Assembly: GCA_006226415.1 (NCBI GenBank)
Contig: SBGZ01000061.1
Coordinates: 7,341-71,340, forward strand
Length of the DNA: 64,000 nucleotides
Direction: 5' to 3'
From: Alphaproteobacteria bacterium
GTDB lineage: Bacteria > Pseudomonadota > Alphaproteobacteria > M2410
In this document: piece by piece, positions 39,765 to 61,003 of the stretch
Position numbering within the stretch: the stretch's first letter is position 1
Layout of the letters: the number at the start of each line of letters is the position of its first letter
Program-made: the position numbers and the translations under genes
The notes under the pieces: model-generated
Told to the model about the DNA's origin: nothing
What the model saw: only the letters and a program-made list of their open reading frames with translations
The model's database searches: none

Positions 39765-39796
39765 TTGACCTTCCGGTGAATGGAGGGTCCATTAAT
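39765..39796 (+). promoter_or_regulatory. MerR/CueR-type copper-responsive promoter of copA
   Basis: TTGACC is followed by a 19-nt spacer containing the dyad CCTTCC-N7-GGAGGG, then cATTAAt. This is nearly the layout of E. coli PcopA (TTGACCTTCC...GGAAGG, 19-bp spacer). Confidence 0.55.
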
Positions 39797-39841
39797 GACC
39801 TCTAAATTTCCCTTTTGTATGGATGCACAGGCCGTTCTCAA

Positions 39842-41671: not shown

Positions 41672-42410
41672 ACGCGTGCCTTTGGTGGCATTTTTCATGG
41701 GGGCGGGACTTTCCGGTGCCTTTGCTTCGGACGATTTGCCCGCGTCCTATCAAGCACTTTTGGCCGGGACGGGCGCACAGACCCATTGGCAGGTTTCCTT
41801 TGACCGTTTTGAGGTTCAAAGCAACGAGGGCGACCTGAGTGCGGTCGCAGAAGGTGATTTCTGGTTTGGCGGCGACCTCAATAAGCTTTGGATCAAAATG
41901 GGGGGCGAGTTTGATCTTGAGACCCATGGCGGCCATGAGGTGGACGTCGAAGCGCTCTACGCGCGCGCCATGACGCCCTTCTTTGATTTACAGATGGGGC
42001 TCGCACACGATTTTACCGATGGCGACGACCGCAGCTATGGGGTCCTTGGCGTCATGGGACATGCGCCTTATTGGATCGGTGTTGATGCGGCGCTTTATGT
42101 CAGTGAAGGTGGAGATCTTTCGGCACGGTTTGAAGTTGAACGCGATATCCTTTTGACCCAGCGGCTTATTTTGCAGCCACGCTTTGAAACGCGCTGGCTG
42201 GCGGAGAGTTTACTGGCGGACATGCTGGGGGCTGGTGTTACCGGCACGGAACTTGGTCTGCGGCTGCGCTATGACGTGAGCCGCCAATTTGCCCCTTATG
42301 TGGGGGTCAGTGCGGCATGGGCGCTTGGAGACACGGCAGATCTTTTGCGTCTGAGCGGTGAGAATACCCAGGACACCTCGCTCGTTGTGGGCCTCAAATT
42401 CTGGTTCTAA
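41664..42410 (+). CDS. copB: copper resistance protein B (outer-membrane beta-barrel)
   Basis: It overlaps the copA stop, has a signal peptide, and ends in the aromatic KFWF. Confidence 0.8.
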   Translation: MIKRVPLVAFFMGAGLSGAFASDDLPASYQALLAGTGAQTHWQVSFDRFEVQSNEGDLSAVAEGDFWFGGDLNKLWIKMGGEFDLETHGGHEVDVEALYARAMTPFFDLQMGLAHDFTDGDDRSYGVLGVMGHAPYWIGVDAALYVSEGGDLSARFEVERDILLTQRLILQPRFETRWLAESLLADMLGAGVTGTELGLRLRYDVSRQFAPYVGVSAAWALGDTADLLRLSGENTQDTSLVVGLKFWF

Positions 42411-42441
42411 AACTAATGGCGGCGCTTGGGCCCGGACAGGC

Positions 42442-42469
42442 AAAAGAAAACCGGGGCGTCACGCCCCGG
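42442..42469 (-). terminator. rho-independent terminator of the minus-strand membrane gene
   Basis: The stem ccggggcg/cgccccgg has a tca loop. On the minus strand it is followed by TTTTCTTTT. Confidence 0.65.
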
Positions 42470-42497
42470 CCTTCAAAAAGAAATTTTGTAGCTGTCT

Positions 42498-42881
42498 CTA
42501 ATCGCGTCCGGCAAATTTGAAAATCTGAAACGCGAAGATGATGTAGCCGACCAGGACAATCGGTTCGGTAATCATGAAGATGGGCTCTGCAGCTTCTGGG
42601 GTTGTGGCCCCTTTGACCAACAGAAAAAGATTGATCAGGATGATCGGCACCATGGTCTGATGAATCCAGAAATGTATTTTTGGCAGGATGCCATCCTGCA
42701 TTTTTGGAAACAGGTGGTAGGCAAAGCCAAATACCGCCATGGAAACAAAACCCAGAAGATTGATATGGGCATGTGTTGGCGCCTGTGAATGGTCGCCCGA
42801 TGCGCCCATGTGGATCCCAAGCGCAACGCCGACAACGATATAAAGTGAGGCCATCACCAAAAACGCGCGACCAATATTCAT
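42498..42881 (-). CDS. small His-rich 4-TM membrane protein of unknown function next to copAB
   Basis: A strong SD (GGGGGAG) precedes ATG 42881. Conserved-looking His residues lie at helix ends (IHMGASGDHSQAPTHAHINLLGF, HLFP, HFWIHQ). Confidence 0.55.
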   Translation of the reverse strand: MNIGRAFLVMASLYIVVGVALGIHMGASGDHSQAPTHAHINLLGFVSMAVFGFAYHLFPKMQDGILPKIHFWIHQTMVPIILINLFLLVKGATTPEAAEPIFMITEPIVLVGYIIFAFQIFKFAGRD

Positions 42882-49774: not shown

Positions 49775-50496
49775 TTCAGAATCCGCAATCAGATGGATTT
49801 GGCTTCAAGCCCGGCTATGTGCTTGCGGGCAAGTACAAAGTTTTGGCGCGCCTTGGGTCCGGGATCGAGGGTGAGGTTTACCAGATTGAGGAAGAGCTTA
49901 CCAAGCTAACCCGCGCCGTGAAGCTCTTTTACCCGGCCCAGGAAGCAAAGCCCCGCGCGGTGGTGCGCTATGCGAAAATGCTGGAGCAGCTGCGCGACTG
50001 CCCTTCAGTCATTCGCTACCATTCGATTGAGAAGATCCGGTGGCGCCGGCAGCAGGTCTTTATGCTGGTGAGTGAATATACCAGCGGCCTGCTTCTGTCG
50101 GATCTGATCCAGGACGCGCGTGGCAAACGGCTGCCGGTCTTTGAGGCGCTTGCCATTGTCTATGAGGTCACCAAGGCCTTGCAGGAAATCCACAAGCGGC
50201 GGCTTTATCATGGCGATCTGCACTCGGGAAATGTTCTCGTTCAGCGGCGCGGGGTCCACTTCGATATCAAGATCGTTGATTTCTATGACAGGGGACCGTC
50301 GACGCTGAGCGAGCGGCAGGAAGATGTGGTTGATCTGGTGCGTCTGCTCTTTGAGATGCTGGGTGAGCGCAAGCATTACCAACAACTTCCACCTCAGGTC
50401 CGGGCGATCATTCTTGGGCCGCGGCGGGATCGCATTCTGGCGAAATTTCCGACGGTGACCAAATTGCGCGATCATCTGGATCAATTTTCCTGGTAA
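49771..50496 (+). CDS. minimal protein-kinase-like (PKL) domain protein
   Basis: It has a G-loop (LGSGIEGEVY), a Lys in AVKLF, a catalytic loop (HGDLHSGNVLV) and KIVDFY in place of DFG. Its start overlaps the lysR stop (ATGA). Confidence 0.7.
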   Translation: MIQNPQSDGFGFKPGYVLAGKYKVLARLGSGIEGEVYQIEEELTKLTRAVKLFYPAQEAKPRAVVRYAKMLEQLRDCPSVIRYHSIEKIRWRRQQVFMLVSEYTSGLLLSDLIQDARGKRLPVFEALAIVYEVTKALQEIHKRRLYHGDLHSGNVLVQRRGVHFDIKIVDFYDRGPSTLSERQEDVVDLVRLLFEMLGERKHYQQLPPQVRAIILGPRRDRILAKFPTVTKLRDHLDQFSW

Positions 50497-50683
50497 GGCC
50501 GCTCTGATATCGAAAAGTCCGATAACAGGTATATGAGAAATTCGATATACAGAGGACATTGTCCGATGGTCTCATTTAGCGCATGAGGTCGGAGTTCCTG
50601 GGCTTGCGTTTGGGAGCTGAGCGTTATCGAGCCAGATCTTTTCGGGCCTCAAGGAAAGCGGCTCAACATGGCTGAGGGCAAAA

Positions 50684-51055
50684 TTGGCTCGCATCACAGT
50701 CGAGGACTGTATTCCTCATATTCCTAATCGATTTGATCTTGTCTTGCTGGCTGCGGAAAGGGCGCGCCAAATCGAACGGCCATCGCCGGGCTCGACTTCA
50801 GAACCGGCCCCAGAACCCAAAACTGTCACCGCCCTTCGGGAATTGGAAACAGGTCTTTGGAACCCCGCGGATATGTCTGAGGGCCTTGTGCGCCGCATGA
50901 TGCGTGCGCCCGTGCCCGACGAGGATTTACCGGAAATGGTTGATGCCATGGCTTTGGCATCTGAAGAAGCCTTTTTGAGAGAAAATCTCGCTTCCATTCG
51001 TGCCGGCGAGATGCGGAGACGCAAGTTGGCGACGGGATTTGATGGGGACTGGTAA
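50684..51055 (+). CDS. rpoZ: DNA-directed RNA polymerase subunit omega
   Basis: The canonical N-terminus MARITVEDCIPHIPNRFDLVLLAAERARQI is present. The start codon is TTG. Confidence 0.9.
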   Translation: MARITVEDCIPHIPNRFDLVLLAAERARQIERPSPGSTSEPAPEPKTVTALRELETGLWNPADMSEGLVRRMMRAPVPDEDLPEMVDAMALASEEAFLRENLASIRAGEMRRRKLATGFDGDW

Positions 51056-51088
51056 AAGAGCGTTGATCCAGGTGTTAGGTGATTGAAA

Positions 51089-51271
51089 ATGGAAAAATCT
51101 AAAACGGGTTACCACGAAAAATTCGAAACTTCGGAAATGACCAAGCAACCGCCTCGTCAGTCTATTGGCGACGAGGCGTGGGATGTGCCCAAGTCCAGTC
51201 GCTACGAAAACCGCATGAAGTTTAAGAAACGCGATGCCCGTCGCGGCGCCTGGGACGACGACGAAGACTGA
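51089..51271 (+). CDS. small, highly charged hypothetical protein (60 aa)
   Basis: An aggtg SD lies 8 nt before ATG 51089. No family is recognised, and coding status is uncertain. Confidence 0.3.
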   Translation: MEKSKTGYHEKFETSEMTKQPPRQSIGDEAWDVPKSSRYENRMKFKKRDARRGAWDDDED

Positions 51272-51275
51272 GTGG

Positions 51276-51932
51276 TTATACGGGCCCTTTGATCGACTTT
51301 TGCGCCAGGTAGAACACCAGGGCAAGGGTCACTAGGATCTGTCCTAGAATCAGGACCGGAAACAAGCTCACTTCAAAAGCAGATCCCAAATTCCAAGCGC
51401 GCGGCAGATAGCTGGGCGCGGCGAGGACAAACGACAGGATAAAGACCGCGAGGAGCGCGCGGCTGCCCCCGAATATCCGCCAGCAAATCAATCCATAAGC
51501 GGTCTCAAAGAGAAGCTCGGGGAAGGGAAGCGCGGCGATAAAATTGGTGCCGTATTTGGCATTGCCGATAAAGGGGGCAAGGGCGATGTCTGGCTCATGA
51601 ACCGCGATATCAAGCAGGATATGTGAGAAAACGGCGGCCGCCAGCGCTGCGGCCACGCGAGCGGAGCCTTTCCGCCAGAGGGCAAACATCGCCAGGAGGG
51701 CCGCACATAGGATCGTTCCCACAATCGAATGTGAATAGGGCATATGGGTCAGATGCATATCAGTGATATGTGTGCCCGGCGCGTCCAGCGTGACAAATTC
51801 CACCCCAACTAGATTTAGGCCGACCCAGATAAATTCAATCGCCTCAGTGGCGAGTAGTAAGGGCAACAAAGGCGCTTCTGGAACCGTCTTCTTGACGACC
51901 AGGGCTGTTGCCAGGTGGTTGATGGCTTGCAT
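51276..51932 (-). CDS. polytopic membrane protein, possibly a YdjM/DUF457-like membrane-bound metal-dependent hydrolase
   Basis: His-containing motifs at membrane interfaces (MPYSHSIVG, FSHILLDIAVHEPD) are reminiscent of the DUF457 family. Confidence 0.45.
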   Translation of the reverse strand: MQAINHLATALVVKKTVPEAPLLPLLLATEAIEFIWVGLNLVGVEFVTLDAPGTHITDMHLTHMPYSHSIVGTILCAALLAMFALWRKGSARVAAALAAAVFSHILLDIAVHEPDIALAPFIGNAKYGTNFIAALPFPELLFETAYGLICWRIFGGSRALLAVFILSFVLAAPSYLPRAWNLGSAFEVSLFPVLILGQILVTLALVFYLAQKSIKGPV

Positions 51933-51982
51933 GATGGGTTCCTTTCGAGGGTTAGCAATTGCTCACCTTTGCGGCAAAAAAA

Positions 51983-52579
51983 TTATCTCAGCGCGGCGCT
52001 TAACAAACGAAACAAGTCGGAAGTCAGACGTGTTGCAGGCCCCTCTGTGGCGCCCAGATAGAGTTGACGTGTCAGTTGAGTGACGGTTCCTGTGACCAGG
52101 GCGATTTGAAGCTCTAATGAATGGTCGCGTGAGACAGCTCTCTCTCGCCTTCCTTTCATAAGCAATTCCCGGGTCAGGGTAATCACGGTTCGCTTTTTCA
52201 TGGCGGCGGGCATATGCGGCCAAAAATCCGGCAGATAGTTCGCCAGAAAAATGGTTGCTTCAGGTGCCTCGTCATAGAGACGGGCGAGGGTGCGCAGATA
52301 TTCGCGCAGGCTCTGGTCAAAATCTTTACGGTCTTTGAGGGCCGTGTTGAGACGCGAAAATTGTTCCCGATAGCAAAGCGCGAACAGATACTGAGCGAGG
52401 GCTTCTTTTGAGGGGAAGTGCTTGTAAAGCGCGGGATTGGAATAGCCTGTAGCAGCGGCAATGTCCCGGACCGTCGTTTCAGATAAGCCCTTGCTGGCAA
52501 ACAGACGCAAACCCTCGGCCAATATCCGCTGTTTGGCAGGCGGATCGTTGGGGTCAATGTAAAAGGGCGTCGTTGTCAT
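51983..52579 (-). CDS. TetR/AcrR-family transcriptional regulator
   Basis: The HTH region reads TTVRDIAAATGYSNPALYKHFPSKEAL. Confidence 0.85.
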   Translation of the reverse strand: MTTTPFYIDPNDPPAKQRILAEGLRLFASKGLSETTVRDIAAATGYSNPALYKHFPSKEALAQYLFALCYREQFSRLNTALKDRKDFDQSLREYLRTLARLYDEAPEATIFLANYLPDFWPHMPAAMKKRTVITLTRELLMKGRRERAVSRDHSLELQIALVTGTVTQLTRQLYLGATEGPATRLTSDLFRLLSAALR

Positions 52580-52642
52580 ACCGCAAGGTAAGCATTTGCT
52601 AACTGGCCTGTCAATTCAGCAAGGCAGTAAATTGTTCGTTCG

Positions 52643-53308
52643 TTACACGCGGCCTTTGACCGGCAGGCGCGTTCCCGTGACGCCTGAAGCAGCATCGGAC
52701 AGCAGGAATGTAATGACTTGGGCAAGTTCATCGGCTGTGACCCAATCTGCGAAATTGGCATCTGGCATGTCGCGGCGATTGGCAGGCGTGTCGATAATCG
52801 AAGGCTGAATGGCATTGACCCGAATGCCGTCGGATTTAAGTTCCTCCGCCAGGTTTTCAGTGAGGCGCGAGACCGCGGCCTTGGAGGCTGCATAAGCGCC
52901 CATGCCGGCCGCCGCGCTTTCGGAGGCGGCGGCGGAAATGTTTACAATGGATCCACCTGGGCTGGCGAGGATGGGCAGTGCGGCCTTGGACATGTTGAGT
53001 GCTGTTTTGAGGTTGAGGGCCCACATGCGGTCCCAGGTGTCGACCGAGCCCTCTGTTGTCATTTCCCAGACAAAGCCGCCGGCGATATTGACGAGGCCGT
53101 GGAGGACGATATTTTCGTCTTTCAGCGTGCTGATAATACGTTCAGCATCCGCAAAATTGGTAAGATCTGCTTTTCCAAAATAGTGCTCGACCGGGGCGGG
53201 GGTCGTTTCTGCGAGGTCGACGCCTATCACCTCCCAGCCATTTTGATCGAGATGTCTGGCAACGGTTTGTCCAAGAGCTCCGGCGACGCCGGTAACAAGT
53301 GCGCGCAT
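52643..53308 (-). CDS. short-chain dehydrogenase/reductase (SDR)
   Basis: Carries the VTGVAGALG cofactor motif, the YAASKAA catalytic motif (YxxxK) and NAIQPSIIDTP. Confidence 0.85.
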   Translation of the reverse strand: MRALVTGVAGALGQTVARHLDQNGWEVIGVDLAETTPAPVEHYFGKADLTNFADAERIISTLKDENIVLHGLVNIAGGFVWEMTTEGSVDTWDRMWALNLKTALNMSKAALPILASPGGSIVNISAAASESAAAGMGAYAASKAAVSRLTENLAEELKSDGIRVNAIQPSIIDTPANRRDMPDANFADWVTADELAQVITFLLSDAASGVTGTRLPVKGRV

Positions 53309-53454
53309 ATCATTTGTCCGTATTTGTAAAGAAATCGGGTTGGCTGTTGGTTTAGCAAGTGTTCCGCGTGCCGTCTATGGGGCCGAGCTGCTTGTTTTGA
53401 CCTGTGGTTTTGATAGACTTTCCACCAGACACCCAAGGGAAAGGATTTTACATC

Positions 53455-54453
53455 ATGTCGTTTGGCAAAATTCACAGACTCTCTTTGCTTGTGTCCGCTT
53501 CTGCGTTGATCTTATCGGCTTGCGGTGAGGGGAAAAAGGAAGAAGAGACAGCGGTTATCTCACCTGCCGCCACTGAAGACATGACCTCAGCGGTTGTGGA
53601 GGCGCCGGGCCCCAATGTTTTGGAGATCGAGGCGGTTGGCATGTCCTTTGAAGGACCGAGCGAGGTTCCTTCTGGATGGACCACCATTCGCATGAAGAAT
53701 ACCTCCGACATGCTGCATTTTGCGATTGTGGATGTTCTGCCGGAAGGTGTGACCGCTGAAGCCTTTGCCAGTGATGTCGCTGTACCATTCCAAAAGGCCA
53801 TGAATGGTATGAATGCGGGAGACGAGGAAGCCACGAATGCTGCCTTTGGGGAGTTTCCAGCCTGGATTGCGGAATTGGGGCGTAATGGTGGCCCGGGATT
53901 TACTTCAGCCGGACATAACAGTGAAGCGACGGTTTATCTGGCGCCAGGGCAGTATGCGATTGAGTGCTATGTCAAAACGGCGGGTATTTTTCATACAACA
54001 CCGATGGAAGACCGCCCTCTTGGTATGTTGCTCCCTTTGACAGTGACTGAAAGTGAAGCGGCAACAGGTGAGCCGGAAGCCAATGTCACCGTTAATGTGA
54101 CGAATTCTGGGTATGAGATTGTCGAGGGGGCTCTGCAAGTGGGGAGCAATATGATCCGCGTCAATTTTGTCGAGCAACAGGCGCTTCCAACATTTGTAGG
54201 TAACGACATCCATCTGATGCGCGTGTCAGATGAGAGTGATCTCGATGTTGCCAATAGTTGGATGGACTGGAGTGCGCCGGAAGGTATGGAAACCCCGTCG
54301 CCTGTGGAATTTGTTGGTGGGCTCAATGATTTGCCACAAGGAGCACACGGCTATTTTAAGGTGGATCTGGCACCGGGCGATTATGCGTTCATCGGTGAAC
54401 AACCTGATCCGGCCGCTCACGGCTTCCTGCTCCCTGTAAGCGTCTCGGAATAG
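53455..54453 (+). CDS. lipoprotein with two tandem cupredoxin-like domains, function unknown
   Basis: It has a lipobox (ILSACG). An internal duplication is evident because both halves end in LAPG(Q/D)YA...G(M/F)LLP(L/V)(T/S)V(T/S)E. The first half keeps a His...Cys...His...Met set. I prefer ATG 53455. Confidence 0.65.
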   Translation: MSFGKIHRLSLLVSASALILSACGEGKKEEETAVISPAATEDMTSAVVEAPGPNVLEIEAVGMSFEGPSEVPSGWTTIRMKNTSDMLHFAIVDVLPEGVTAEAFASDVAVPFQKAMNGMNAGDEEATNAAFGEFPAWIAELGRNGGPGFTSAGHNSEATVYLAPGQYAIECYVKTAGIFHTTPMEDRPLGMLLPLTVTESEAATGEPEANVTVNVTNSGYEIVEGALQVGSNMIRVNFVEQQALPTFVGNDIHLMRVSDESDLDVANSWMDWSAPEGMETPSPVEFVGGLNDLPQGAHGYFKVDLAPGDYAFIGEQPDPAAHGFLLPVSVSE

Positions 54454-54461
54454 AACTGGAA

Positions 54462-54947
54462 ATGACAGCCATGATACCGAAAATCACCTACAGTCTTGCT
54501 TTCACCCTTGCCTTGACCATGGCATTGAGTGCCTGTGCCTCGGAGGCGCCTTACGGCCCGGCCGCGAGCAGCGCTTCGAGCGGGTATACGCAGAAATCCC
54601 TTGAGGAAGGCCGCTACCGGGTGACCTATCGTGCTCGTACGGCGGAAGCTGCTCGTGATGGGGCGCTCCGCCGGGCGGCCGAGATTACGCTTGGCGATGG
54701 CGCCGAGTGGTTCCAAATTGTGCACGCCTATTCAGAGGGAACCGCCGCGCAGCCGCGAACCTCGGTCGGCATTGGTGGCCACTCCGGTGGAGGCGGCTCT
54801 GGGGTTGGTGTGGGTATTGGCATGAGTTTTCCGCTCGGTGGCGGCTCGTCCTACGAACATAGTTTTGAATTCATCGTCGGCTCAGGCGAACGGCCAGAAG
54901 GCGGCGATGTTTATGATGCCCGCAGCCTCTTTCGAGTGGCTGGATAG
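54462..54947 (+). CDS. small lipoprotein (CC0125/CC1285-like) with a Gly-rich segment
   Basis: It has a lipobox (ALSACA), the sequence YRVTYRARTAEAARDGALRRAAEITL and a GGHSGGGGSGVGVGIG stretch. Confidence 0.55.
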   Translation: MTAMIPKITYSLAFTLALTMALSACASEAPYGPAASSASSGYTQKSLEEGRYRVTYRARTAEAARDGALRRAAEITLGDGAEWFQIVHAYSEGTAAQPRTSVGIGGHSGGGGSGVGVGIGMSFPLGGGSSYEHSFEFIVGSGERPEGGDVYDARSLFRVAG

Positions 54948-54967
54948 CTTGTGACCAGGGCTGGGCA

Positions 54968-56122
54968 ATGAAACTCCTTGGCGCCGCGCTTGCGGCCCTT
55001 TTGATGATGCAAGGGGCGGTGCGCGCTGAAGACTTTTCTTTGTCGCAAGCCTGTCCGCCCAGTTTTCAGAAGGTGGATGGGCTTTGCCAGTTTCGCTCGC
55101 TTTATCAGCTTTATCCATCGCTTGAAGGCCAGGGGGTTGGCGGTCTTAAAACTGGCCTACCGCCGATCCGGGACGGGTTTTCACCTCAACAGATTGATCT
55201 GGGTCGCTATCTCTTTTTTGACCCTCTCCTGTCAGCCGATGGCACCGTGGCTTGCGCCTCTTGTCATGAACCTGACAAGGGGTTTGCCGATGGCAGGGGG
55301 CGGGCGATCGGGATCACGGGAGAACCGGTCAAGCGGTCGGCGCCATCGCTTTGGAATGTTGGATTTTTGAAGCGGCTCTTTTGGGATGCGCGCGCCGACA
55401 GTCTGGAAGCCCAAATGGAAGGCCCGCTTTATGATGCCATGGAGATGGGCAACACCCGGGAAGGGCTGTTGGCGGCGCTCAATGGCAACTTGAATTACCG
55501 ACGGCTTTTTGCAACGGCCTTTGAGCGCCCGGCAACAAACGAGATCACCTTGGCGGAAATTTATCTCGCCATTGCCGGGTTTGAATCCAGTCTCATCTCT
55601 CTTAACAGCCGCTACGACTATTATGCCCATGGGCAAGCGGATGCACTTTCAGAGGAAGAAATTGAGGGGCTCAATGTTTTTCGCTCCTTCGTGGCGCGCT
55701 GCGCGGAATGCCATACGCCGCCGCTTTTTACCAATCAGCAGATCGCTGTGATCGGGACACCGGAGCCGGAAGGCATGGCGCGGGACACAGGGGTGGCAGG
55801 ACCCACGGGCGACCCTACGCTGCGTGGCGGTTTTAAGGTGCCCTCGCTTCGCAATGTGGCTTTAACCGGTCCTTACATGCATTCGGGCCGTTTTAAGACG
55901 CTGGAAGAGGTTGGCGACTTTTACACAAAAGGGCGCGGCCATGCGGTGCCGGAAGGTGAAGAGCTTTATTTGCATTGGCATATCTGGGAGCCGCAGTTGC
56001 GGCCGGAGGAAGTTAAAAGCGTTGCGGCTTTTCTTCAGGCGCTCACCGATGAAAGCATGAAACCGGAGACACCTGCCGCGGTGCCTTCGGGGCTTCGCGT
56101 TGGCGCGCGCGTGCTGGATTAG
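54968..56122 (+). CDS. di-haem cytochrome c peroxidase / MauG-family enzyme
   Basis: A signal peptide and two CxxCH sites (CASCH, CAECH) are present, along with the PSLRNV motif typical of the CCP/MauG family. Confidence 0.9.
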   Translation: MKLLGAALAALLMMQGAVRAEDFSLSQACPPSFQKVDGLCQFRSLYQLYPSLEGQGVGGLKTGLPPIRDGFSPQQIDLGRYLFFDPLLSADGTVACASCHEPDKGFADGRGRAIGITGEPVKRSAPSLWNVGFLKRLFWDARADSLEAQMEGPLYDAMEMGNTREGLLAALNGNLNYRRLFATAFERPATNEITLAEIYLAIAGFESSLISLNSRYDYYAHGQADALSEEEIEGLNVFRSFVARCAECHTPPLFTNQQIAVIGTPEPEGMARDTGVAGPTGDPTLRGGFKVPSLRNVALTGPYMHSGRFKTLEEVGDFYTKGRGHAVPEGEELYLHWHIWEPQLRPEEVKSVAAFLQALTDESMKPETPAAVPSGLRVGARVLD

Positions 56123-56185
56123 GGCGCAAGCCCCTGCTAGGCTGGCGACTCAAGATTGAAGTTAACTCTGGGGAGGGTTGGTCTC

Positions 56186-57715
56186 GTGGAACGTCATCTG
56201 AAATGGATTGTGCCGGTCGGCACCGCTGCTATCGGCCTTGTTCTTGGCGCTCTGATTTTTGGCGGCGGCGACAAACCGCATGACGAGGTCCTGGTGGCAG
56301 CCAACCCGCTTTTTTCAGGCGGCGATGGCGGCTCCCTGCAGGGCATGCAGGTCACGGGCGTGCGGCATGAGGTTCATGACGGGGAGAGCATTCAGGCAGC
56401 GGTTAAGGCGGCGAAGGCTGGCGATGTAATCGCTGTTTATCCTGGAACCTATCATGAGACGGTTTATATCGATAAGAGCAGCATTACGATGACCGGGGTT
56501 GTTCGCGAGGGCCGATATCCGACCCTTGATGGCGAGAAGAAGCTCAATGATGCTTTTCTTTATTCGGGCGACAATATCACCATCGAGAATTTCAAGATCA
56601 TCAATTACAAGGGCAATGGGGTGATGGGGCAGGCGGGCAACAATTTTGTCATCCGCAATAACCTCATTCATGACGCCGGGGTCTACGGCATCTTTCCCGA
56701 GTTCGGCAAGAACGGGTTGGTGGAACACAATGTGCTTTCCGGCATTGAAGATGCGGCGATCTATATCGGCATGTCGGACAATGTGGATGTGCGCCACAAT
56801 AAGGTCTATGACAATGTGGCGGGGATTGAGATTGAAAACTCACGCCATGCTCTGGTGGAAGGCAACTATGCCTATAACAACACGGGCGGCATTCTGGTTT
56901 TCATTACACCGGGCCTGCCGATTAAAACCACCTATGATGTGATCGTGCGCGATAACTTTGTGCTCGACAACAATCACGAAAACTTTGGCGCTCCGGGCTC
57001 GATTGTTTCCGGCATCCCGGCGGGCACGGGGATCCTTGTCATGGCGGCGGACGATGTGGTGATCGAAAACAACATCATAGCTGGCAATGATAATGCGGGG
57101 CTCATCGTGACCGATATTTCGTCTGTGACCAATGTGGCGAGCGATCCGGAGTCTGAACCCAACCCGGATCGGGTGCGTATTCTCGAGAACGTTATGTTCA
57201 ACAATGGCAATAATCCCATTGGTGAGCTGAAGGCTCTGATGTTGACGCAGTTGGAGACCAAGGGGCCGGATATTGTCGATACCGGGGCGGGCTCTGACAA
57301 ATGCGTGATGAATGGCGCGCGCTACCGGGCCTATGGGCTTGGGAGCTATCGGCCTTGCCGCGCTGATGAAATCTCGACAGCGACAATTGCCAGCATGACC
57401 TTGAGCGCGCCGGCCGAGCCTTTTGTGATCGCGGCGGACACTCAAGATGGGTATGAACGTATCGTGGGCGAGCGGGCCTATTACGGCGTTTGTACCGGCT
57501 GCCATGCCTATGGGGTGCGCTTGATTGGTCCTCCGGTGACGGAGATCCAGGCGATCTATGAAGACAATCCCGAAGCGCTCGCCGCCTATATTGCCGATCC
57601 GGTGAAGGTGCGCGAAAATTTCCCTGAAATGCCGCCGCAGGACTATCTCTCCGAAGAGACGCGCCTCGCGGTTGCCAAATATATTCTATCGACGACCAAT
57701 ACGGACGGGCGGTAG
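56186..57715 (+). CDS. NosD-like right-handed parallel beta-helix protein fused to a C-terminal class I cytochrome c domain
   Basis: It has an N-terminal anchor and repeated N.I..N...GI beta-helix rungs. The C-terminus carries CTGCH plus a distal EMPP Met ligand. GTG 56186 follows a ggggaggg SD; the track starts at TTG 56156. Confidence 0.7.
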   Translation: MERHLKWIVPVGTAAIGLVLGALIFGGGDKPHDEVLVAANPLFSGGDGGSLQGMQVTGVRHEVHDGESIQAAVKAAKAGDVIAVYPGTYHETVYIDKSSITMTGVVREGRYPTLDGEKKLNDAFLYSGDNITIENFKIINYKGNGVMGQAGNNFVIRNNLIHDAGVYGIFPEFGKNGLVEHNVLSGIEDAAIYIGMSDNVDVRHNKVYDNVAGIEIENSRHALVEGNYAYNNTGGILVFITPGLPIKTTYDVIVRDNFVLDNNHENFGAPGSIVSGIPAGTGILVMAADDVVIENNIIAGNDNAGLIVTDISSVTNVASDPESEPNPDRVRILENVMFNNGNNPIGELKALMLTQLETKGPDIVDTGAGSDKCVMNGARYRAYGLGSYRPCRADEISTATIASMTLSAPAEPFVIAADTQDGYERIVGERAYYGVCTGCHAYGVRLIGPPVTEIQAIYEDNPEALAAYIADPVKVRENFPEMPPQDYLSEETRLAVAKYILSTTNTDGR

Positions 57716-57771
57716 GCCAGGCTTTTGTTTGCTGCCCTGGACCCCCGCCTTCGCGGGGGAACAGATTTTAC

Positions 57772-59505
57772 TTACTCCGCCGCCATCGTCGTGGGTGCTC
57801 GTTGCGCGCCGCGAACCAACCTGCCGGGCAGAGCGCCGGTGGGTTTACCGCCCGACATAACCTCCACACCGCTGACAAATGTCGCCTCATAGCCTTTTGC
57901 GTCCTGGAAGAGACGCTTGCCGCCTGCTGGCAGATCATAGGTGACGCGCGGTGCATTGAGGGTCAGACCGTCATAATCGATGAGATTGATGTCGGCCTTG
58001 TAGCCGGGTTTTAAGAGCCCCCGATCCTTCAGGCCGACCGCTTTGGCGGTCTCTTGTGTTTGGGCCTTAATCACTTGCGCGAGATCCAGCTTCGGGCCGC
58101 GCGTGCGATCCCGGGTCCAATGGGTCAGCATATAGGTGGGGAAAGAGCCATCGCAGATGATGCCCACATGGGCGCCGCCATCGCCAAGGCCGAGCACGGT
58201 GGACGGGTGCTCGATCATTTCCCGCGAGGGTTCAAGGCTGCCGCTCGCGTAGTTCAGGAAAGGGTAGAGCAGCATGGCGTGGCCGTCCTCAGCCAGCATG
58301 AGGTCGAGCGCAAGTTCCTGCGGGCTGATGCCTTTGGCGCGGGCCTGCGCCCCGAGGCACATGTCCGGCTCGGGCTCATAGTTGGGCGGATCGCTTAAGG
58401 GAAACATATTGTCAAAGTTGCGCAACACGGACTTCATGAAAGGGTTTTCGCTGGCCCCTTTGTCAGAGAGCAATCGCGCGCGGAACTCAGGATCTTTCAG
58501 AATACGAACTTTTTCTTCCAGAGGCTTGTCAGCAATTTCCTGGAAGGCCGGATGGCCGGTGAAGGGGTTGAGGGTGAGCTCGAGGCCGAGGAGAAGACTG
58601 ACAGGGCGGCCGCAGACCTGGGCTCGCATTTCAAGGCCCGCGTCATTGGCGGCTTTAAGGCCTGCCAGGATGCGTTGATAACTGAGCGGCGCCACCGGGC
58701 TTTGCGCCAGGGAAACCGAGAGGGGGCGACCCGAGGCTTCCACCAAATGGCGCAGCATGTTGAACTCGCGTTCGGGGTCGTCGAAATCGGTGACGAATTG
58801 CAAGACGCCGGTGCCGGCTTCCTTCAGCCCCATGGCAATGCCCAGGAGCTCTTCCTCCGCCGCTGTGAGTGTGGGGGTGGGGTCGCCCTTGGAGGTGCGG
58901 TGGTTCAAGGTGCGGGAGGTGGAAAAGCCGAGCGCGCCGGCCTTGATGGCCTCGCGGGCGAGCTCGGACATTTGCGTAATTTCATCGCTGGTGGCGGCTT
59001 CGCGGTTGGCGCCGCGCTCGCCCATGACATAGACCCGGAGCGCGGCATGGGGAACCTGCGCGGCAATATCGATGTCATGAGGCCGTGCCTCCACGGCGTC
59101 GAGATATTCCGGGAAGCTCTCCCAGTTCCATTCAAGCCCTTCGGCGAGGACCGCGTGGGGGATGTCCTCCACGCCCTCCATGAGATGAATGAGATTGTCG
59201 TGGTCTTCCTGGCGGCAGGGGGCAAAGCCGACCCCGCAATTGCCCATGACGGCGGTGGTGACCCCGTGGTTTGAGGAAGGCGAAAGCTCAGAGCCCCAGG
59301 TGGCCTGGCCATCGTAGTGGGTATGGATATCAACAAAGCCGGGCGTGACCAGAAGGCCGTGCGCGTCAACCTCACGGGCGGCCGAACCGGTGATGTCGCC
59401 CACGGCGGCAATTTTGCCGTCCTTCACCGCCAGATCGCCGGTAAAAGGCGCCGCGCCGGAGCCATCGACAATCGTGCCGCCGCGTATGATGAGATCGTAG
59501 TTCAT
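57772..59505 (-). CDS. N-acyl-D-amino-acid deacylase (D-aminoacylase) family amidohydrolase
   Basis: The N-terminus is YDLIIRGGTIVDGSG...GFVDIHTHYDG. ATG 59505 follows a GGGAGGA SD; the track's N-terminal extension is rejected. Confidence 0.85.
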   Translation of the reverse strand: MNYDLIIRGGTIVDGSGAAPFTGDLAVKDGKIAAVGDITGSAAREVDAHGLLVTPGFVDIHTHYDGQATWGSELSPSSNHGVTTAVMGNCGVGFAPCRQEDHDNLIHLMEGVEDIPHAVLAEGLEWNWESFPEYLDAVEARPHDIDIAAQVPHAALRVYVMGERGANREAATSDEITQMSELAREAIKAGALGFSTSRTLNHRTSKGDPTPTLTAAEEELLGIAMGLKEAGTGVLQFVTDFDDPEREFNMLRHLVEASGRPLSVSLAQSPVAPLSYQRILAGLKAANDAGLEMRAQVCGRPVSLLLGLELTLNPFTGHPAFQEIADKPLEEKVRILKDPEFRARLLSDKGASENPFMKSVLRNFDNMFPLSDPPNYEPEPDMCLGAQARAKGISPQELALDLMLAEDGHAMLLYPFLNYASGSLEPSREMIEHPSTVLGLGDGGAHVGIICDGSFPTYMLTHWTRDRTRGPKLDLAQVIKAQTQETAKAVGLKDRGLLKPGYKADINLIDYDGLTLNAPRVTYDLPAGGKRLFQDAKGYEATFVSGVEVMSGGKPTGALPGRLVRGAQRAPTTMAAE

Positions 59506-59634
59506 TGTATGTCCTCCCTGGCGCTCTAGTAGAGCCCTGAACTTTGAAGAGGTCAATATGAGGACCAGCAAGGGCGGGCTTTGCAAGCGCCGCGCTTGTG
59601 CCTAAAGTTGCAAGAAAAAGAGGAGGAGGCCCCC

Positions 59635-60636
59635 ATGGCACGCACGGCTGAGGAACAGAGCGCCTGGCTGGACCAGGTGCAGGAAGTGATAATTGATCCG
59701 GAGCGGCGGATTATTGATCCCCATCACCACTTGTGGCGCAATCGGGAGCGGCCCTATCTTCTGGATGAGCTTTGGGCGGATACGGGCACGGGGCACAAGG
59801 TTGAAAAAACGGTCTTCATCGAATGTGGCTCGGAATATCGCGCGGCAGGTCCTGAGCATCTGAAGCCCGTGGGGGAAACCGAATTTGTCGCGGAAATCGC
59901 CAAGGCTTCGCGGGCCGGACCGGGTCCCGAGATCGCGGGCATTGTGGCGCATGCCAATCTCTTGTCGGACCGGCTTGAAGAAATTCTGGATGCCCATGAA
60001 GAAGCCGCAGATGGGCTCTTTCGCGGTATCCGCCATTCGGGCGCCTTTGATGACGCGCCTCAGATCCGCGCCGGACATTCCAACCCGCCGAAAGATCTTT
60101 TCCTGCATCCCACCTATCAGGCATCGGTGCGCGAAATTGGCGCGCGCGGTCATACTTTGGATGTCTGGTGCTACCACAAACAGATACCCCAGGTTACTGA
60201 GCTGGCCCGCGCGGCGCCGGAAACCATCCTTATCTTTGATCACTTCGGCGGGCCGCTCGGCATCGGGCCCTATGAGGGGCAGCATGCGGAGATTTTCAAA
60301 CAATGGCGCGAGGATGTGGCGGAACTTGCCACCTGCCCCAATGTGCATGCCAAGCTTGGCGGTTTTGCCATGGTGGTCAATGGTTGGGGCTGGGACAAAC
60401 GCGGCAAGCCTGCGACGTCGGATGAGCTCGTGGCGGCGCAAGGGGATTGGTACGCCCATACGCTGGACTGCTTTGGTCCGGAGCGCTGTCTCTTTGAAAG
60501 TAATTACCCGATGGATCGGCAGTCGATTTCCTATGGGGTTTTGTGGAATGCCTTTAAGAAAATGGCCAAAAATTTCTCTGAAGAGGCCAAGGACGCCCTC
60601 TTTTACGGAAATTCTAAACAGATTTATCGGCTGTAA
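59635..60636 (+). CDS. amidohydrolase-2 (TIM-barrel metal-dependent hydrolase) family protein
   Basis: Has IDPHHHLW at the N-terminus and DHFG plus a late D in NYPMD. ATG 59635 follows a gaggaggagg SD. Confidence 0.75.
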   Translation: MARTAEEQSAWLDQVQEVIIDPERRIIDPHHHLWRNRERPYLLDELWADTGTGHKVEKTVFIECGSEYRAAGPEHLKPVGETEFVAEIAKASRAGPGPEIAGIVAHANLLSDRLEEILDAHEEAADGLFRGIRHSGAFDDAPQIRAGHSNPPKDLFLHPTYQASVREIGARGHTLDVWCYHKQIPQVTELARAAPETILIFDHFGGPLGIGPYEGQHAEIFKQWREDVAELATCPNVHAKLGGFAMVVNGWGWDKRGKPATSDELVAAQGDWYAHTLDCFGPERCLFESNYPMDRQSISYGVLWNAFKKMAKNFSEEAKDALFYGNSKQIYRL

Positions 60637-60801
60637 AACTGGCTATTTTCTGCGGAATTTTCCGTAATGGGCGCAAATTTCCCATAAATTACTTCAAAAT
60701 TTACGCTTTCTTTACGCGAATTCTATTTTTTAGAACCTGACAAAGCAGCGGGCCTCCCTTTTCCCTTTCAACACCAAGGGCTCGCGCCAGGAGTAAGTAA
60801 G

Positions 60802-60876
60802 ATGATTTTGAAAATTACAACGGTCATGGCCTGCATGTTCTCCGCTTATCTGGTGGTGGTCACAACCTTACTCTAA
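60802..60876 (+). CDS. unannotated 24-codon hydrophobic ORF (MILKITTVMACMFSAYLVVVTTLL)
   Basis: An AGGAG lies 8 nt before the ATG. The product is a single predicted TM helix. It sits alone in a 388-bp intergenic region and is followed about 95 nt later by a strong terminator. Confidence 0.3.
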   Translation: MILKITTVMACMFSAYLVVVTTLL

Positions 60877-60970
60877 CTCACTACAGCATTACCCCGGTTC
60901 GTTTTCCCGCGAGCCACTTCCTCTGGAGTCCTCACACTCACACCCAATCTCAAGGGCTCCAACCAATAAA

Positions 60971-61003
60971 GCCCCGCACTTTTCCCGGTGCGGGGCTTTT
61001 TCT
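60971..61003. terminator. rho-independent (bidirectional) terminator
   Basis: A 9-bp GC stem gccccgcac/gtgcggggc is followed by tttttct on the plus strand. On the minus strand, tttatt follows the same stem after the LLM gene stop. Confidence 0.7.

What the first reader, a model, noticed from the sequence alone, without database searches (positions are those of the whole stretch)
53455..57715. Four-gene periplasmic redox cluster: tandem cupredoxin-like lipoprotein, small lipoprotein, di-haem CCP/MauG-like enzyme and NosD-like beta-helix::cytochrome c
Four co-oriented, tightly spaced genes (gaps of 8, 20 and about 60 nt) all encode exported proteins. The MauG/CCP family includes enzymes that oxidatively modify partner proteins. 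NosD-type beta-helix proteins are known from maturation of the copper enzyme N2O reductase, yet no nosZ, nosFY or nosL genes are present here. The combination looks like a self-contained periplasmic electron-transfer or protein-maturation module, possibly copper-linked, and I cannot match it to a named system.
Basis: partly seen in the sequence, partly recalled or inferred. Interest (0 to 1): 0.6.

Follow-up and report, generated by a model that had tools for sequence, protein, structure and literature searches.

The report
Di-haem enzyme plus beta-helix cytochrome pair
Only the last two of the four genes form a conserved unit: a MauG-type two-haem enzyme and a membrane-anchored beta-helix protein fused to a cytochrome c, a widespread and still uncharacterised periplasmic redox enzyme pair that in other phyla is one fused protein.

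Summary
The four genes exist as described: co-oriented, with gaps of 8, 20 and 63 nt, and all exported. P1 models as a tandem cupredoxin-like lipoprotein. P2 is a CC0125/CC1285-family lipoprotein. P3 is a di-haem CCP_MauG protein. P4 is a TIGR03805 beta-helix with a C-terminal class-I cytochrome c.

The four-gene unit is not conserved. P1 and P2 sit beside P3-P4 only in this genus, and P1 homologues elsewhere have unrelated neighbours.

The real unit is P3-P4.
- In 58 of 59 loci from Alpha- and Gammaproteobacteria and Bacteroidota (plus Marinimicrobia-like contigs), a P3 orthologue lies directly upstream of the fusion.
- A c4-type di-haem cytochrome often precedes it, and TonB-dependent or SusC transporters are often nearby.
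- In Planctomycetota, Hydrogenedentota, Verrucomicrobiota and Acidobacteriota the two are one polypeptide (CCP_MauG::beta-helix, at least 117 clusters).
- One deltaproteobacterium replaces the cytochrome c with a cupredoxin.

P3 is MauG-type, with a conserved Tyr at the E-haem ligand position. P4 is not NosD (65 bits against a cutoff of 300).

Best reading: a stoichiometric periplasmic haem/beta-helix oxidoreductase with its own electron-transfer domain, substrate unknown. I found no characterisation of it in the literature.

The parts
53455..54453 (+). P1: 332-aa lipoprotein with a tandem cupredoxin-like fold. H88, C171, H180 and M191 are invariant and could be type-1 Cu ligands. It is a genus-specific neighbour, not part of the conserved module.
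   Evidence: ORF and lipobox. No Pfam, NCBIfam or PDB sequence hit. Family of about 320 proteins at 52-64% identity with invariant residues. AF2 pLDDT 85 with Foldseek hits to two-domain laccases and CuNiR. Not syntenic with the pair elsewhere.
54462..54947 (+). P2: 161-aa CC0125/CC1285-family lipoprotein of unknown function. It is a genus-specific neighbour.
   Evidence: NF047637 at 98.3 bits against a cutoff of 40. Found next to the pair only in G000 and G001.
54968..56122 (+). P3: MauG-type di-haem enzyme of the CCP_MauG superfamily. Haem motifs are CASCH at 55253-55267 and CAECH at 55700-55714. The putative Tyr319 E-haem ligand is at 55922-55924. Family-specific features are an N-terminal Cys pair, an HWHI motif and a C-terminal VPSGL tail.
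   Evidence: Pfam and NCBIfam. Best PDB match is 6e1c, a 'di-heme enzyme', at 8e-48; I identify it as MbnH from memory. Conservation in 57 orthologues and alignment of Tyr319 with the MbnH Tyr and the NeCCP Met position. It is the only CCP_MauG gene in the genome.
56186..57715 (+). P4: inner-membrane-anchored TIGR03805 parallel beta-helix fused to a class-I cytochrome c. An alternative TTG start lies at 56156.
   Evidence: ORF and Shine-Dalgarno. TIGR03805 at 202 bits against 141.5. AF2 pLDDT 82. 2683 homologues at E<1e-10.
56201..56260 (+). P4 N-terminal transmembrane signal-anchor helix.
   Evidence: AF2 helix at residues 10-35; a hydrophobic stretch is conserved in homologues.
56363..57205 (+). 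P4 right-handed beta-helix domain. Y177, D199, Y203, E225, E227 and N228 are conserved across all three architectures of the family.
   Evidence: AF2 strands 70-348. Foldseek to AlgE4 epimerase, PL6 lyases and RbmB. Conservation analysis.
57443..57691 (+). P4 C-terminal mono-haem cytochrome c domain (CTGCH at 57491-57505; Met492 in PEMPPQ).
   Evidence: Pfam Cytochrome_CBB3 and Cytochrom_C. PDB c-552-type hits at E about 0.006. Motifs.

Best explanation
P3 and P4 are the two subunits of one periplasmic redox enzyme. P1 and P2 are unrelated lipoprotein genes that lie upstream only in this genus. P4 is tethered to the outer face of the inner membrane by an N-terminal helix. It presents a beta-helix domain whose conserved Tyr/Asp/Glu/Asn face most likely binds the substrate. 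P3 is a MauG-type di-haem protein (His/Tyr E-haem, intact peroxidatic haem pocket, inter-haem Trp) that docks onto the beta-helix. By analogy with MauG, MbnH and BthA, it would react with H2O2, or with O2 plus two electrons, to form a high-valent bis-Fe(IV) oxidant that acts on what the beta-helix holds. The cytochrome c fused to P4 connects this centre to the periplasmic electron pool; in most other genomes a c4-type di-haem cytochrome encoded just upstream does so too. Shown here: domain identities, export signals, near-obligate adjacency and co-occurrence, natural single-chain fusions, and swapping of the electron-transfer domain. Inferred: the physical complex in this organism, the direction of electron flow, bis-Fe(IV) chemistry, and the substrate. 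The frequent TonB-dependent or SusC neighbours suggest an imported organic molecule, possibly a glycan.
For: Synteny: 58 of 59 fusion-type loci with at least 1.5 kb of upstream DNA have a P3 orthologue (56-69% identity) directly upstream on the same strand. They span Alpha- and Gammaproteobacteria and Bacteroidota, plus Marinimicrobia-like contigs. The one exception carries the orthologue elsewhere in its genome. Rosetta-stone fusion: L091 encodes CCP_MauG and the beta-helix in one 866-aa ORF. All 120 listed protein clusters from Planctomycetota, Hydrogenedentota, Verrucomicrobiota, Acidobacteriota and Armatimonadota carry both domains, and 117 of them are at least 740 aa long. Their haem domain keeps P3's motifs, and P3's C-terminal VPSGL tail corresponds to their interdomain linker. 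Fused and separate forms interleave in the tree, and all beta-helix-linked di-haem proteins group together (83/84; pair clade 100/100). The electron-transfer domain is exchangeable: cytochrome c here, plastocyanin/azurin-type cupredoxin in L090. That pattern is typical of domains serving a redox-active catalytic partner. The more distant TIGR03805 clade is always followed by a different, non-homologous di-haem cytochrome, TIGR03806, so this beta-helix family consistently works with two c-haems. P3 is MauG-type: Tyr319 is at least 95% conserved at the position of the MbnH Tyr and the NeCCP Met, and Trp, Gln and Glu of the peroxidatic site are conserved. The His/Tyr criterion comes from PMC11892367 and PMC6405878. 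Context: a c4-type cytochrome is upstream in 37 loci, a TonB-dependent receptor is nearby in 17, an AraC regulator in 8, and SusC-like transporters sit in the same gene string in flavobacteria.
Against: There is no biochemical data for any family member. No cofactor or metal site can be assigned to the beta-helix. Foldseek gives only generic beta-helix CAZyme matches at 10-17% identity. Gene fusion does not exclude a maturase-substrate relationship. The transporter association holds in a minority of loci and is absent from this window. Tyr ligation is inferred from alignment to partial PDB sequences, not observed. No complex model could be made: structure jobs were exhausted and no multimer tool was available.
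Confidence: 0.5

Rival explanations
1. Maturase model. P3 acts like MauG on preMADH or MbnH on MbnP. It oxidatively modifies a Tyr or Trp of the P4 beta-helix to create a protein-derived cofactor or metal site. P4 alone is then a dehydrogenase that passes electrons through its fused cytochrome c to the respiratory chain.
For: P3 is MauG-type, and its closest solved relative is 6e1c (MbnH by my recollection) at 8e-48. The characterised MauG-type enzymes MauG and MbnH modify a partner protein encoded nearby (PMC11951088; PMC11892367). The beta-helix has strictly conserved Tyr177 and Tyr203 and no recognisable cofactor motif. C-terminal cytochrome c fusions are typical of periplasmic dehydrogenases (established knowledge).
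Against: Widespread covalent fusion of the two proteins fits a stoichiometric catalytic partnership better than a catalytic maturase. The canonical TIGR03805 clade usually has no CCP_MauG gene nearby and uses a non-homologous di-haem partner instead. This model is not mutually exclusive with the best explanation.
Confidence: 0.25
2. Peroxide-defence model. P3 is the cell's periplasmic cytochrome c peroxidase, and the cytochrome c domain of P4 is simply its tethered electron donor. The beta-helix has a structural or unrelated role.
For: P3 is the only CCP_MauG gene in this 84%-complete genome. Its peroxidatic-site residues are intact. The MauG-type enzyme BthA retains H2O2 reduction (PMC6405878).
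Against: Tyr rather than Met at the E-haem position marks the low-potential MauG type, which are reported to be poor peroxidases (PMC11892367). This model leaves the 55-75% identity of the beta-helix across phyla, its fusion to the haem domain and the transporter and AraC contexts unexplained.
Confidence: 0.08
3. P1, a cupredoxin-like lipoprotein, replaces the missing c4-type cytochrome as electron carrier for P3-P4. P1-P2-P3-P4 are co-transcribed as one copper-linked module.
For: The genes are tightly spaced (8, 20 and 63 nt) and the order is the same in the sister genome. P1 and P2 occupy the position held by the c4 cytochrome gene in 37 other loci, and this genome has no c4 orthologue. A cupredoxin replaces cytochrome c as the fused domain in L090. 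P1 has invariant His/Cys/His/Met.
Against: P1 is absent from G002 and G006, which have the pair, and is unlinked in G004. P1 homologues in Gammaproteobacteria are stand-alone genes with unrelated neighbours. The C-X8-H-X10-M spacing is atypical for type-1 copper (my knowledge). No transcript data were obtainable.
Confidence: 0.1
4. NosD-like chaperone model. The beta-helix delivers copper or sulfur to a periplasmic metalloenzyme, as NosD does for N2O reductase.
For: Pfam NosD (PF05048) matches at 51 bits.
Against: The NosD family model TIGR04247 scores 65 bits against a cutoff of 300. No nosZ, nosFY or nosL genes lie nearby, and none appear in any of the neighbourhoods listed with Pfam annotations. 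No NosD structure is among the top 50 Foldseek hits. NosD works with an ABC transporter, not with haem proteins (established knowledge).
Confidence: 0.03

Closest known systems
MbnH/MbnP (methanobactin-operon di-haem enzyme and its Trp-rich copper-binding partner)
   Same: P3's best solved relative is PDB 6e1c, which I take to be MbnH (8e-48). It has the MauG-type Tyr position and is encoded next to a dedicated exported partner. TonB-dependent transporters are often nearby, as MbnT is for MbnPH (the MbnT parallel is from my own knowledge).
   Different: P3 scores 218 bits on the MbnH model against a cutoff of 363. The partner is a beta-helix::cytochrome c, not an MbnP-type protein. No copper site or WxW motif was identified. 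The partnership can be a covalent fusion.
MauG/pre-methylamine dehydrogenase
   Same: A di-haem CCP-superfamily enzyme with His/Tyr haem and an inter-haem Trp, acting with a specific periplasmic protein partner encoded in the same operon.
   Different: TIGR03791 scores 171 bits against a cutoff of 444. No mau genes are present. The partner fold is a beta-helix, not the MADH beta-subunit. Extra cytochrome c domains are part of the module.
TIGR03805/TIGR03806 pair (SO_2931/SO_2930 type: beta-helix protein plus SO2930-family di-haem cytochrome c)
   Same: P4 is a member of TIGR03805 above cutoff. Like the canonical members, it is always paired with a two-haem exported protein. Function is unknown for both.
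   Different: Here the partner lies upstream and belongs to the unrelated CCP_MauG superfamily (hhalign finds only the haem motif). The beta-helix has gained a TM anchor and a fused cytochrome c. Identity to canonical members is only 31-42%.
NosD (N2O reductase maturation beta-helix)
   Same: Periplasmic right-handed beta-helix. The Pfam NosD model matches part of the domain.
   Different: It fails the NosD family model (65 bits against 300). There is no NosFY ABC partner, NosL or NosZ context. It is fused to a cytochrome and paired with a haem enzyme.
Di-haem CCP-superfamily oxygenases acting on non-protein substrates (rubber oxygenase RoxA; P. aeruginosa oleate diol synthase; hydrazine synthase gamma subunit)
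   Same: They show that CCP_MauG-fold proteins can be catalytic subunits for polymer, lipid or small-molecule chemistry, sometimes within hetero-complexes (PMC6311187, PMC4496055 and PMC12607021, listed). Weak RoxA-like cytochrome c Pfam hits occur in the fused relatives.
   Different: There is no close sequence relationship, and none of these uses a beta-helix partner or a fused class-I cytochrome c.

Membership tests
NosD (TIGR04247, N2O reductase maturation protein) | Scores above the curated family cutoff of 300 bits | tested here: not met
   64.9 bits. Only the generic Pfam NosD/Beta_helix repeats match.
NosD (TIGR04247, N2O reductase maturation protein) | Encoded with nosZ, nosF, nosY and nosL | tested here: not met
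   None among the ORFs listed around the cluster at 50000-61000 or in the annotated neighbourhoods of homologues. A genome-wide NosZ propeller search found nothing, but its control did not ring either, so genome absence is inconclusive.
TIGR03805 beta_helix_1 | Scores above the curated cutoff of 141.5 bits | tested here: met
   202 bits over residues 79-363. It is the single member in the genome.
TIGR03805/TIGR03806 two-gene pair | Adjacent SO2930-family di-haem cytochrome c (TIGR03806) | tested here: not met
   No TIGR03806 homologue lies next to any cytochrome-fused member. The partner is CCP_MauG instead, and the two partner families are not homologous. Canonical members do have the TIGR03806 neighbour.
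MauG-type bacterial di-haem peroxidase (bCCP/MauG superfamily) | CCP_MauG domain with two CxxCH motifs and an inter-haem Trp | tested here: met
   PF03150 at 2.4e-51. CASCH at 96-100 and CAECH at 245-249. The Trp of FWDAR is conserved in 57 orthologues.
MauG-type bacterial di-haem peroxidase (bCCP/MauG superfamily) | His/Tyr rather than His/Met ligation of the E-haem | tested here: met
   By alignment only. Tyr319 (at least 95% conserved) aligns with the Tyr in the MbnH 'DIY' motif and falls where the NeCCP Met follows the aligned stretch. The criterion comes from PMC11892367. Spectroscopy is needed for proof.
MauG-type bacterial di-haem peroxidase (bCCP/MauG superfamily) | Forms a bis-Fe(IV) state with H2O2 | not testable with these tools
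   Requires purified protein with near-IR, EPR or Moessbauer spectroscopy.
MauG proper (TIGR03791) | Above the equivalog cutoff of 443.85 bits and encoded in a mau operon | tested here: not met
   170.8 bits. There are no methylamine dehydrogenase genes among the neighbours.
MbnH family (TIGR04039) | Above the cutoff of 362.85 bits and paired with an MbnP-type protein | tested here: not met
   218.1 bits. None of P1, P2 or P4 matches an MbnP-type model in NCBIfam.
Canonical bacterial cytochrome c peroxidase | His/Met high-potential E-haem | tested here: not met
   Tyr, not Met, at the aligned ligand position across the family.
Cupredoxin / type-1 copper protein (P1) | Cupredoxin beta-sandwich fold | tested here: met
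   The AF2 model (pLDDT 85) hits two-domain laccases, multicopper oxidases and CuNiR at E 2e-8 and probability 1.0. TM-scores are only about 0.22, so domain orientation differs.
Cupredoxin / type-1 copper protein (P1) | His, Cys, His, Met copper ligand set in canonical spacing | tested here: inconclusive
   H88, C171, H180 and M191 are invariant in 28 sequences. The Cys-X8-His-X10-Met spacing is unusual, and the geometry was not inspected.
CC0125/CC1285 lipoprotein family (P2) | Above the NF047637 cutoff of 40 bits, with a lipobox | tested here: met
   98.3 bits. LSAC lipobox.

The most novel reading that the evidence does not exclude
The MauG-type di-haem unit and the carbohydrate-enzyme-like beta-helix form a previously unrecognised class of H2O2- or O2-driven periplasmic oxidative enzyme. 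It would attack a TonB- or SusC-imported glycan or other organic polymer or oligomer held on the beta-helix. That would make it a haem-based functional counterpart of LPMOs or rubber oxygenase, wired to the respiratory chain through a built-in cytochrome c or cupredoxin, and widespread in marine heterotrophs and Planctomycetota.
Probability: 0.15. Interest if true: 0.85.

Novelty: new variant of a known kind. Interest (0 to 1): 0.6.

Why it matters
MauG-type di-haem enzymes are known for rare high-valent chemistry, yet only two partner systems are understood: MauG with preMADH, and MbnH with MbnP. This work defines a third partnership that is much more widespread and involves a completely different partner fold. 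It comprises thousands of sequences across at least nine phyla or candidate phyla, common in marine Gammaproteobacteria, Flavobacteriia and Marinimicrobia. Natural fusions support a direct physical partnership. The work also gives the first functional handle on the orphan TIGR03805 beta-helix family (SO_2931 type), which always partners with two c-haems. Cultured hosts exist for direct testing, including Maribacter ulvicola, Lutimonas, Simiduia, Alteromonas sediminis, Thalassotalea litorea and Kordiimonas sediminis. For this window specifically, it corrects the unit from four genes to two.

Tried and rejected
- **Four-gene synteny.** Rejected, because P1 and P2 co-occur with the pair only within the genus.
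- **NosD identity.** Rejected on the family HMM and on context.
- **Sequence search of P1 and P2 against the PDB.** Nothing useful came back.
- **Foldseek of the P4 model.** Only generic beta-helix CAZymes matched (AlgE4, PL6, RbmB, DFA-IIIase), with no specific functional assignment.
- **Remote homology between the two kinds of di-haem partner (TIGR03806 and the P3 family).** None beyond the CxxCH motif.
- **TonB-receptor subtyping to guess the substrate.** All hits were below family cutoffs, so it was uninformative.
- **Literature searches.** Searches for SO_2930/2931, TIGR03805/6, MauG plus beta-helix, and NosD-like plus peroxidase found no characterisation. SO2931 is only listed as a putative outer-membrane cytochrome.
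- **Promoter and terminator scan.** Counts were at chance level.
- **NosZ genome search.** The control was silent, so the result is inconclusive.

Full report
**1. Observation**

One search shows four + strand ORFs at the stated place.
- P1, 53455-54453, 332 aa.
- P2, 54462-54947, 161 aa.
- P3, 54968-56122, 384 aa.
- P4, ending at 57715.

For P4, the ORF listing starts at TTG 56156. The likely start is GTG 56186: it lies 9-10 nt after GGGGAGGG, and homologues begin there with M-x-x-x-LKW.

All four products are exported. P1 and P2 have LSAC lipoboxes and P3 has a Sec signal peptide. P4 has an N-terminal hydrophobic helix with no cleavage motif, so it is a signal anchor. The cluster is bounded by a divergent SDR/TetR pair and a convergent amidohydrolase gene.

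**2. What each gene is**

- **P3** is a CCP_MauG di-haem protein (2.4e-51). It falls below the curated cutoffs for MbnH (218 against 363 bits) and MauG (171 against 444 bits). Its best solved relative is 6e1c, deposited as 'di-heme enzyme', at 8e-48; I identify it from memory as MbnH. Canonical peroxidases follow at about 1e-39, and MauG at about 1e-22.
- **P4** is a member of TIGR03805 'beta_helix_1' (202 bits, cutoff 141.5). It scores only 65 bits against a cutoff of 300 on the NosD family model. It carries a C-terminal class-I cytochrome c, with CTGCH and a PEMPPQ Met ligand motif.
- **The AF2 model of P4** (pLDDT 82) shows a TM helix, a linker, a beta-helix at about 70-350, an insert and a cytochrome domain at 430-512. 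Foldseek returns only generic beta-helix carbohydrate enzymes at 10-17% identity: AlgE4 epimerase, PL6 lyases and RbmB. No NosD structure is in the top 50.
- **P2** is a CC0125/CC1285-family lipoprotein.
- **P1** has no HMM or PDB sequence match. It belongs to a family of about 320 proteins at 52-64% identity. Its AF2 model (pLDDT 85) is two cupredoxin-like sandwiches that hit two-domain laccases and Cu nitrite reductase at E about 2e-8 with low TM-scores. H88, C171, H180 and M191 are invariant.

**3. Is the four-gene cluster a unit? No**

The same-genus genome G001 has all four genes and the same flanks. G002, G006 and G004 belong to other genera of the family and keep only P3-P4. P1 is absent from G002 and G006, and in G004 it lies more than 1 Mb from the pair. 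Three P1 homologues on long contigs have unrelated neighbours. Among 80 genome loci plus several metagenome contigs, P1 and P2 appear only in the window's genus.

**4. The conserved unit is P3-P4**

The beta-helix::cytochrome c fusion is very common: 2683 hits at E<1e-10, with 55-75% identity across phyla. In 58 of 59 fusion-type loci with at least 1.5 kb of upstream DNA, a P3 orthologue (56-69% identity) lies directly upstream on the same strand.
- Organisms include Kordiimonas, Haliea, Halioglobus, Simiduia, Colwellia, Pseudoalteromonas, Thalassotalea, Alteromonas, Spongiibacter, Arenicella, Woeseiaceae, Povalibacter, Lutimonas, Maribacter, Chryseolinea and Marinimicrobia-like contigs.
- The single exception, Biformimicrobium, has the orthologue elsewhere in its genome.

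Recurrent extra genes are:
- a c4-type di-haem cytochrome immediately upstream of P3, in 37 loci;
- a TonB-dependent receptor, in 17 loci;
- an AraC regulator, in 8 loci;
- in flavobacteria, a SusC-like transporter plus an unannotated 528-aa protein in the same gene string.

This window lacks the c4 gene. P1 and P2 occupy its place, and the genome has no c4 orthologue.

**5. Evidence that the two proteins work as one enzyme**

- In a Pirellulales genome, the CCP_MauG domain and the beta-helix are one 866-aa ORF.
- A database search with that protein lists 120 clusters of roughly 690-866 aa, all carrying both Pfam domains. They come from Planctomycetota, Hydrogenedentota, Verrucomicrobiota, Acidobacteriota and Armatimonadota, out of 1625 hits at E<1e-20. 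117 of the 120 are at least 740 aa long.
- Their haem domain keeps both CxxCH motifs, the FWDGRA Trp, PYMHNG and the FY Tyr. P3's C-terminal tail (P..P..VPSGL) corresponds to the linker in the fusions.
- In a maximum-likelihood tree, the pair-type proteins form one clade (100/100). Fused and separate forms interleave. All beta-helix-associated di-haem proteins group together (83/84), apart from MbnH and NeCCP. Those outgroups are partial sequences on long branches.
- One deltaproteobacterial relative fuses the beta-helix to a plastocyanin/azurin cupredoxin instead of a cytochrome c. The appended domain is therefore an interchangeable one-electron carrier.
- The more distant canonical TIGR03805 clade (31-42% identity) is invariably followed by the SO2930-type di-haem cytochrome TIGR03806. 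That family is not homologous to P3.
- Across all three architectures the beta-helix keeps Y177, P181, D199, Y203, E225, E227 and N228, plus Asn-ladder positions. These residues are candidates for the functional face.

**6. P3 chemistry**

In 57 orthologues, Tyr319 is at least 95% conserved. It aligns with the Tyr of MbnH and falls at the position where NeCCP has its Met ligand. Per PMC11892367 and PMC6405878, His/Tyr against His/Met at the E-haem separates the MauG type from canonical peroxidases. MauG-type enzymes are H2O2-using oxidants that form bis-Fe(IV). The peroxidatic-site Gln and Glu and the inter-haem Trp are conserved. P3 is the only CCP_MauG gene in this 84%-complete genome.

**7. 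Mechanism**

Best reading, confidence about 0.5: P3 plus P4 form a membrane-tethered periplasmic holoenzyme.
- The beta-helix binds the substrate.
- The MauG-type haems supply a high-valent oxidant.
- The fused cytochrome c, and the c4 cytochrome where present, couples the centre to the periplasmic electron pool.
- The substrate is unknown. The transporter contexts suggest an imported organic compound, possibly a glycan.

Rivals:
- P3 as a maturase that installs a protein-derived cofactor in P4 (0.25; not exclusive with the best reading).
- Peroxide defence with a tethered electron donor (0.08).
- A genus-specific four-gene module in which P1 replaces the c4 cytochrome (0.10).
- A NosD-like metallochaperone (0.03).

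**8. Novelty**

No paper in the searchable library characterises TIGR03805/03806, SO_2930/2931 or this pair. Earlier first-reader notes from other genomes independently described the same pair. They agree with the synteny measured here but are unchecked notes, not evidence. I class it as a new variant of a known kind: a MauG-type enzyme with a dedicated partner, and a TIGR03805 beta-helix with a di-haem partner.

**9. Limits**

- There is no biochemistry for any family member.
- Tyr ligation is inferred from alignment.
- No multimer model could be made.
- Promoter and terminator scans were uninformative.

Noticed in passing
window 53455-54453: P1 defines an unannotated family of about 320 lipoproteins, mostly marine Gammaproteobacteria and Xanthomonadales, at 52-64% identity. 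It has a tandem cupredoxin-like predicted fold, a helical insert in domain 1, and invariant H88, C171, H180 and M191. It may be a new blue-copper-like protein with unusual ligand spacing.
   Followed up: partly
L090:6926-8392: A deltaproteobacterial TIGR03805-like beta-helix carries a C-terminal plastocyanin/azurin-type cupredoxin domain where the window's protein has a cytochrome c. It is preceded by a CCP_MauG gene.
   Followed up: partly
L091:5432-8032 and L110:8001-11571: Planctomycete CCP_MauG::beta-helix fusion proteins are followed by a second, stand-alone beta-helix paralogue. In L088 the same three domains are three separate genes.
   Followed up: partly
L095 and L105: Two loci (Polyangiaceae and a deltaproteobacterium) hold a canonical beta-helix, a TIGR03806 di-haem cytochrome and a distant CCP_MauG-like gene together. 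They may link the two partner types.
   Followed up: no
L109:2280-9488; also L029, L031, L032: In Flavobacteriia the pair is the end of a co-directional four-gene string: a SusC-like transporter, a 528-aa protein with no Pfam match, the CCP_MauG gene, and the beta-helix::cytochrome c gene. This looks like a PUL-style operon.
   Followed up: partly
window 56156-56345: The database gene call for the window's P4 (P0001, 456 aa) starts at an internal Met and drops the TM anchor. Homologues and the Shine-Dalgarno sequence support GTG 56186.
   Followed up: yes
L004 (G006:C67:19442-20965): The P4 orthologue in G006 contains one in-frame TAA. This is either a pseudogene or a sequencing error.
   Followed up: no
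window 39765-42881: Earlier notes report a copAB-type copper-resistance operon about 11 kb upstream of the cluster. I found no evidence linking it to P1-P4.
   Followed up: no
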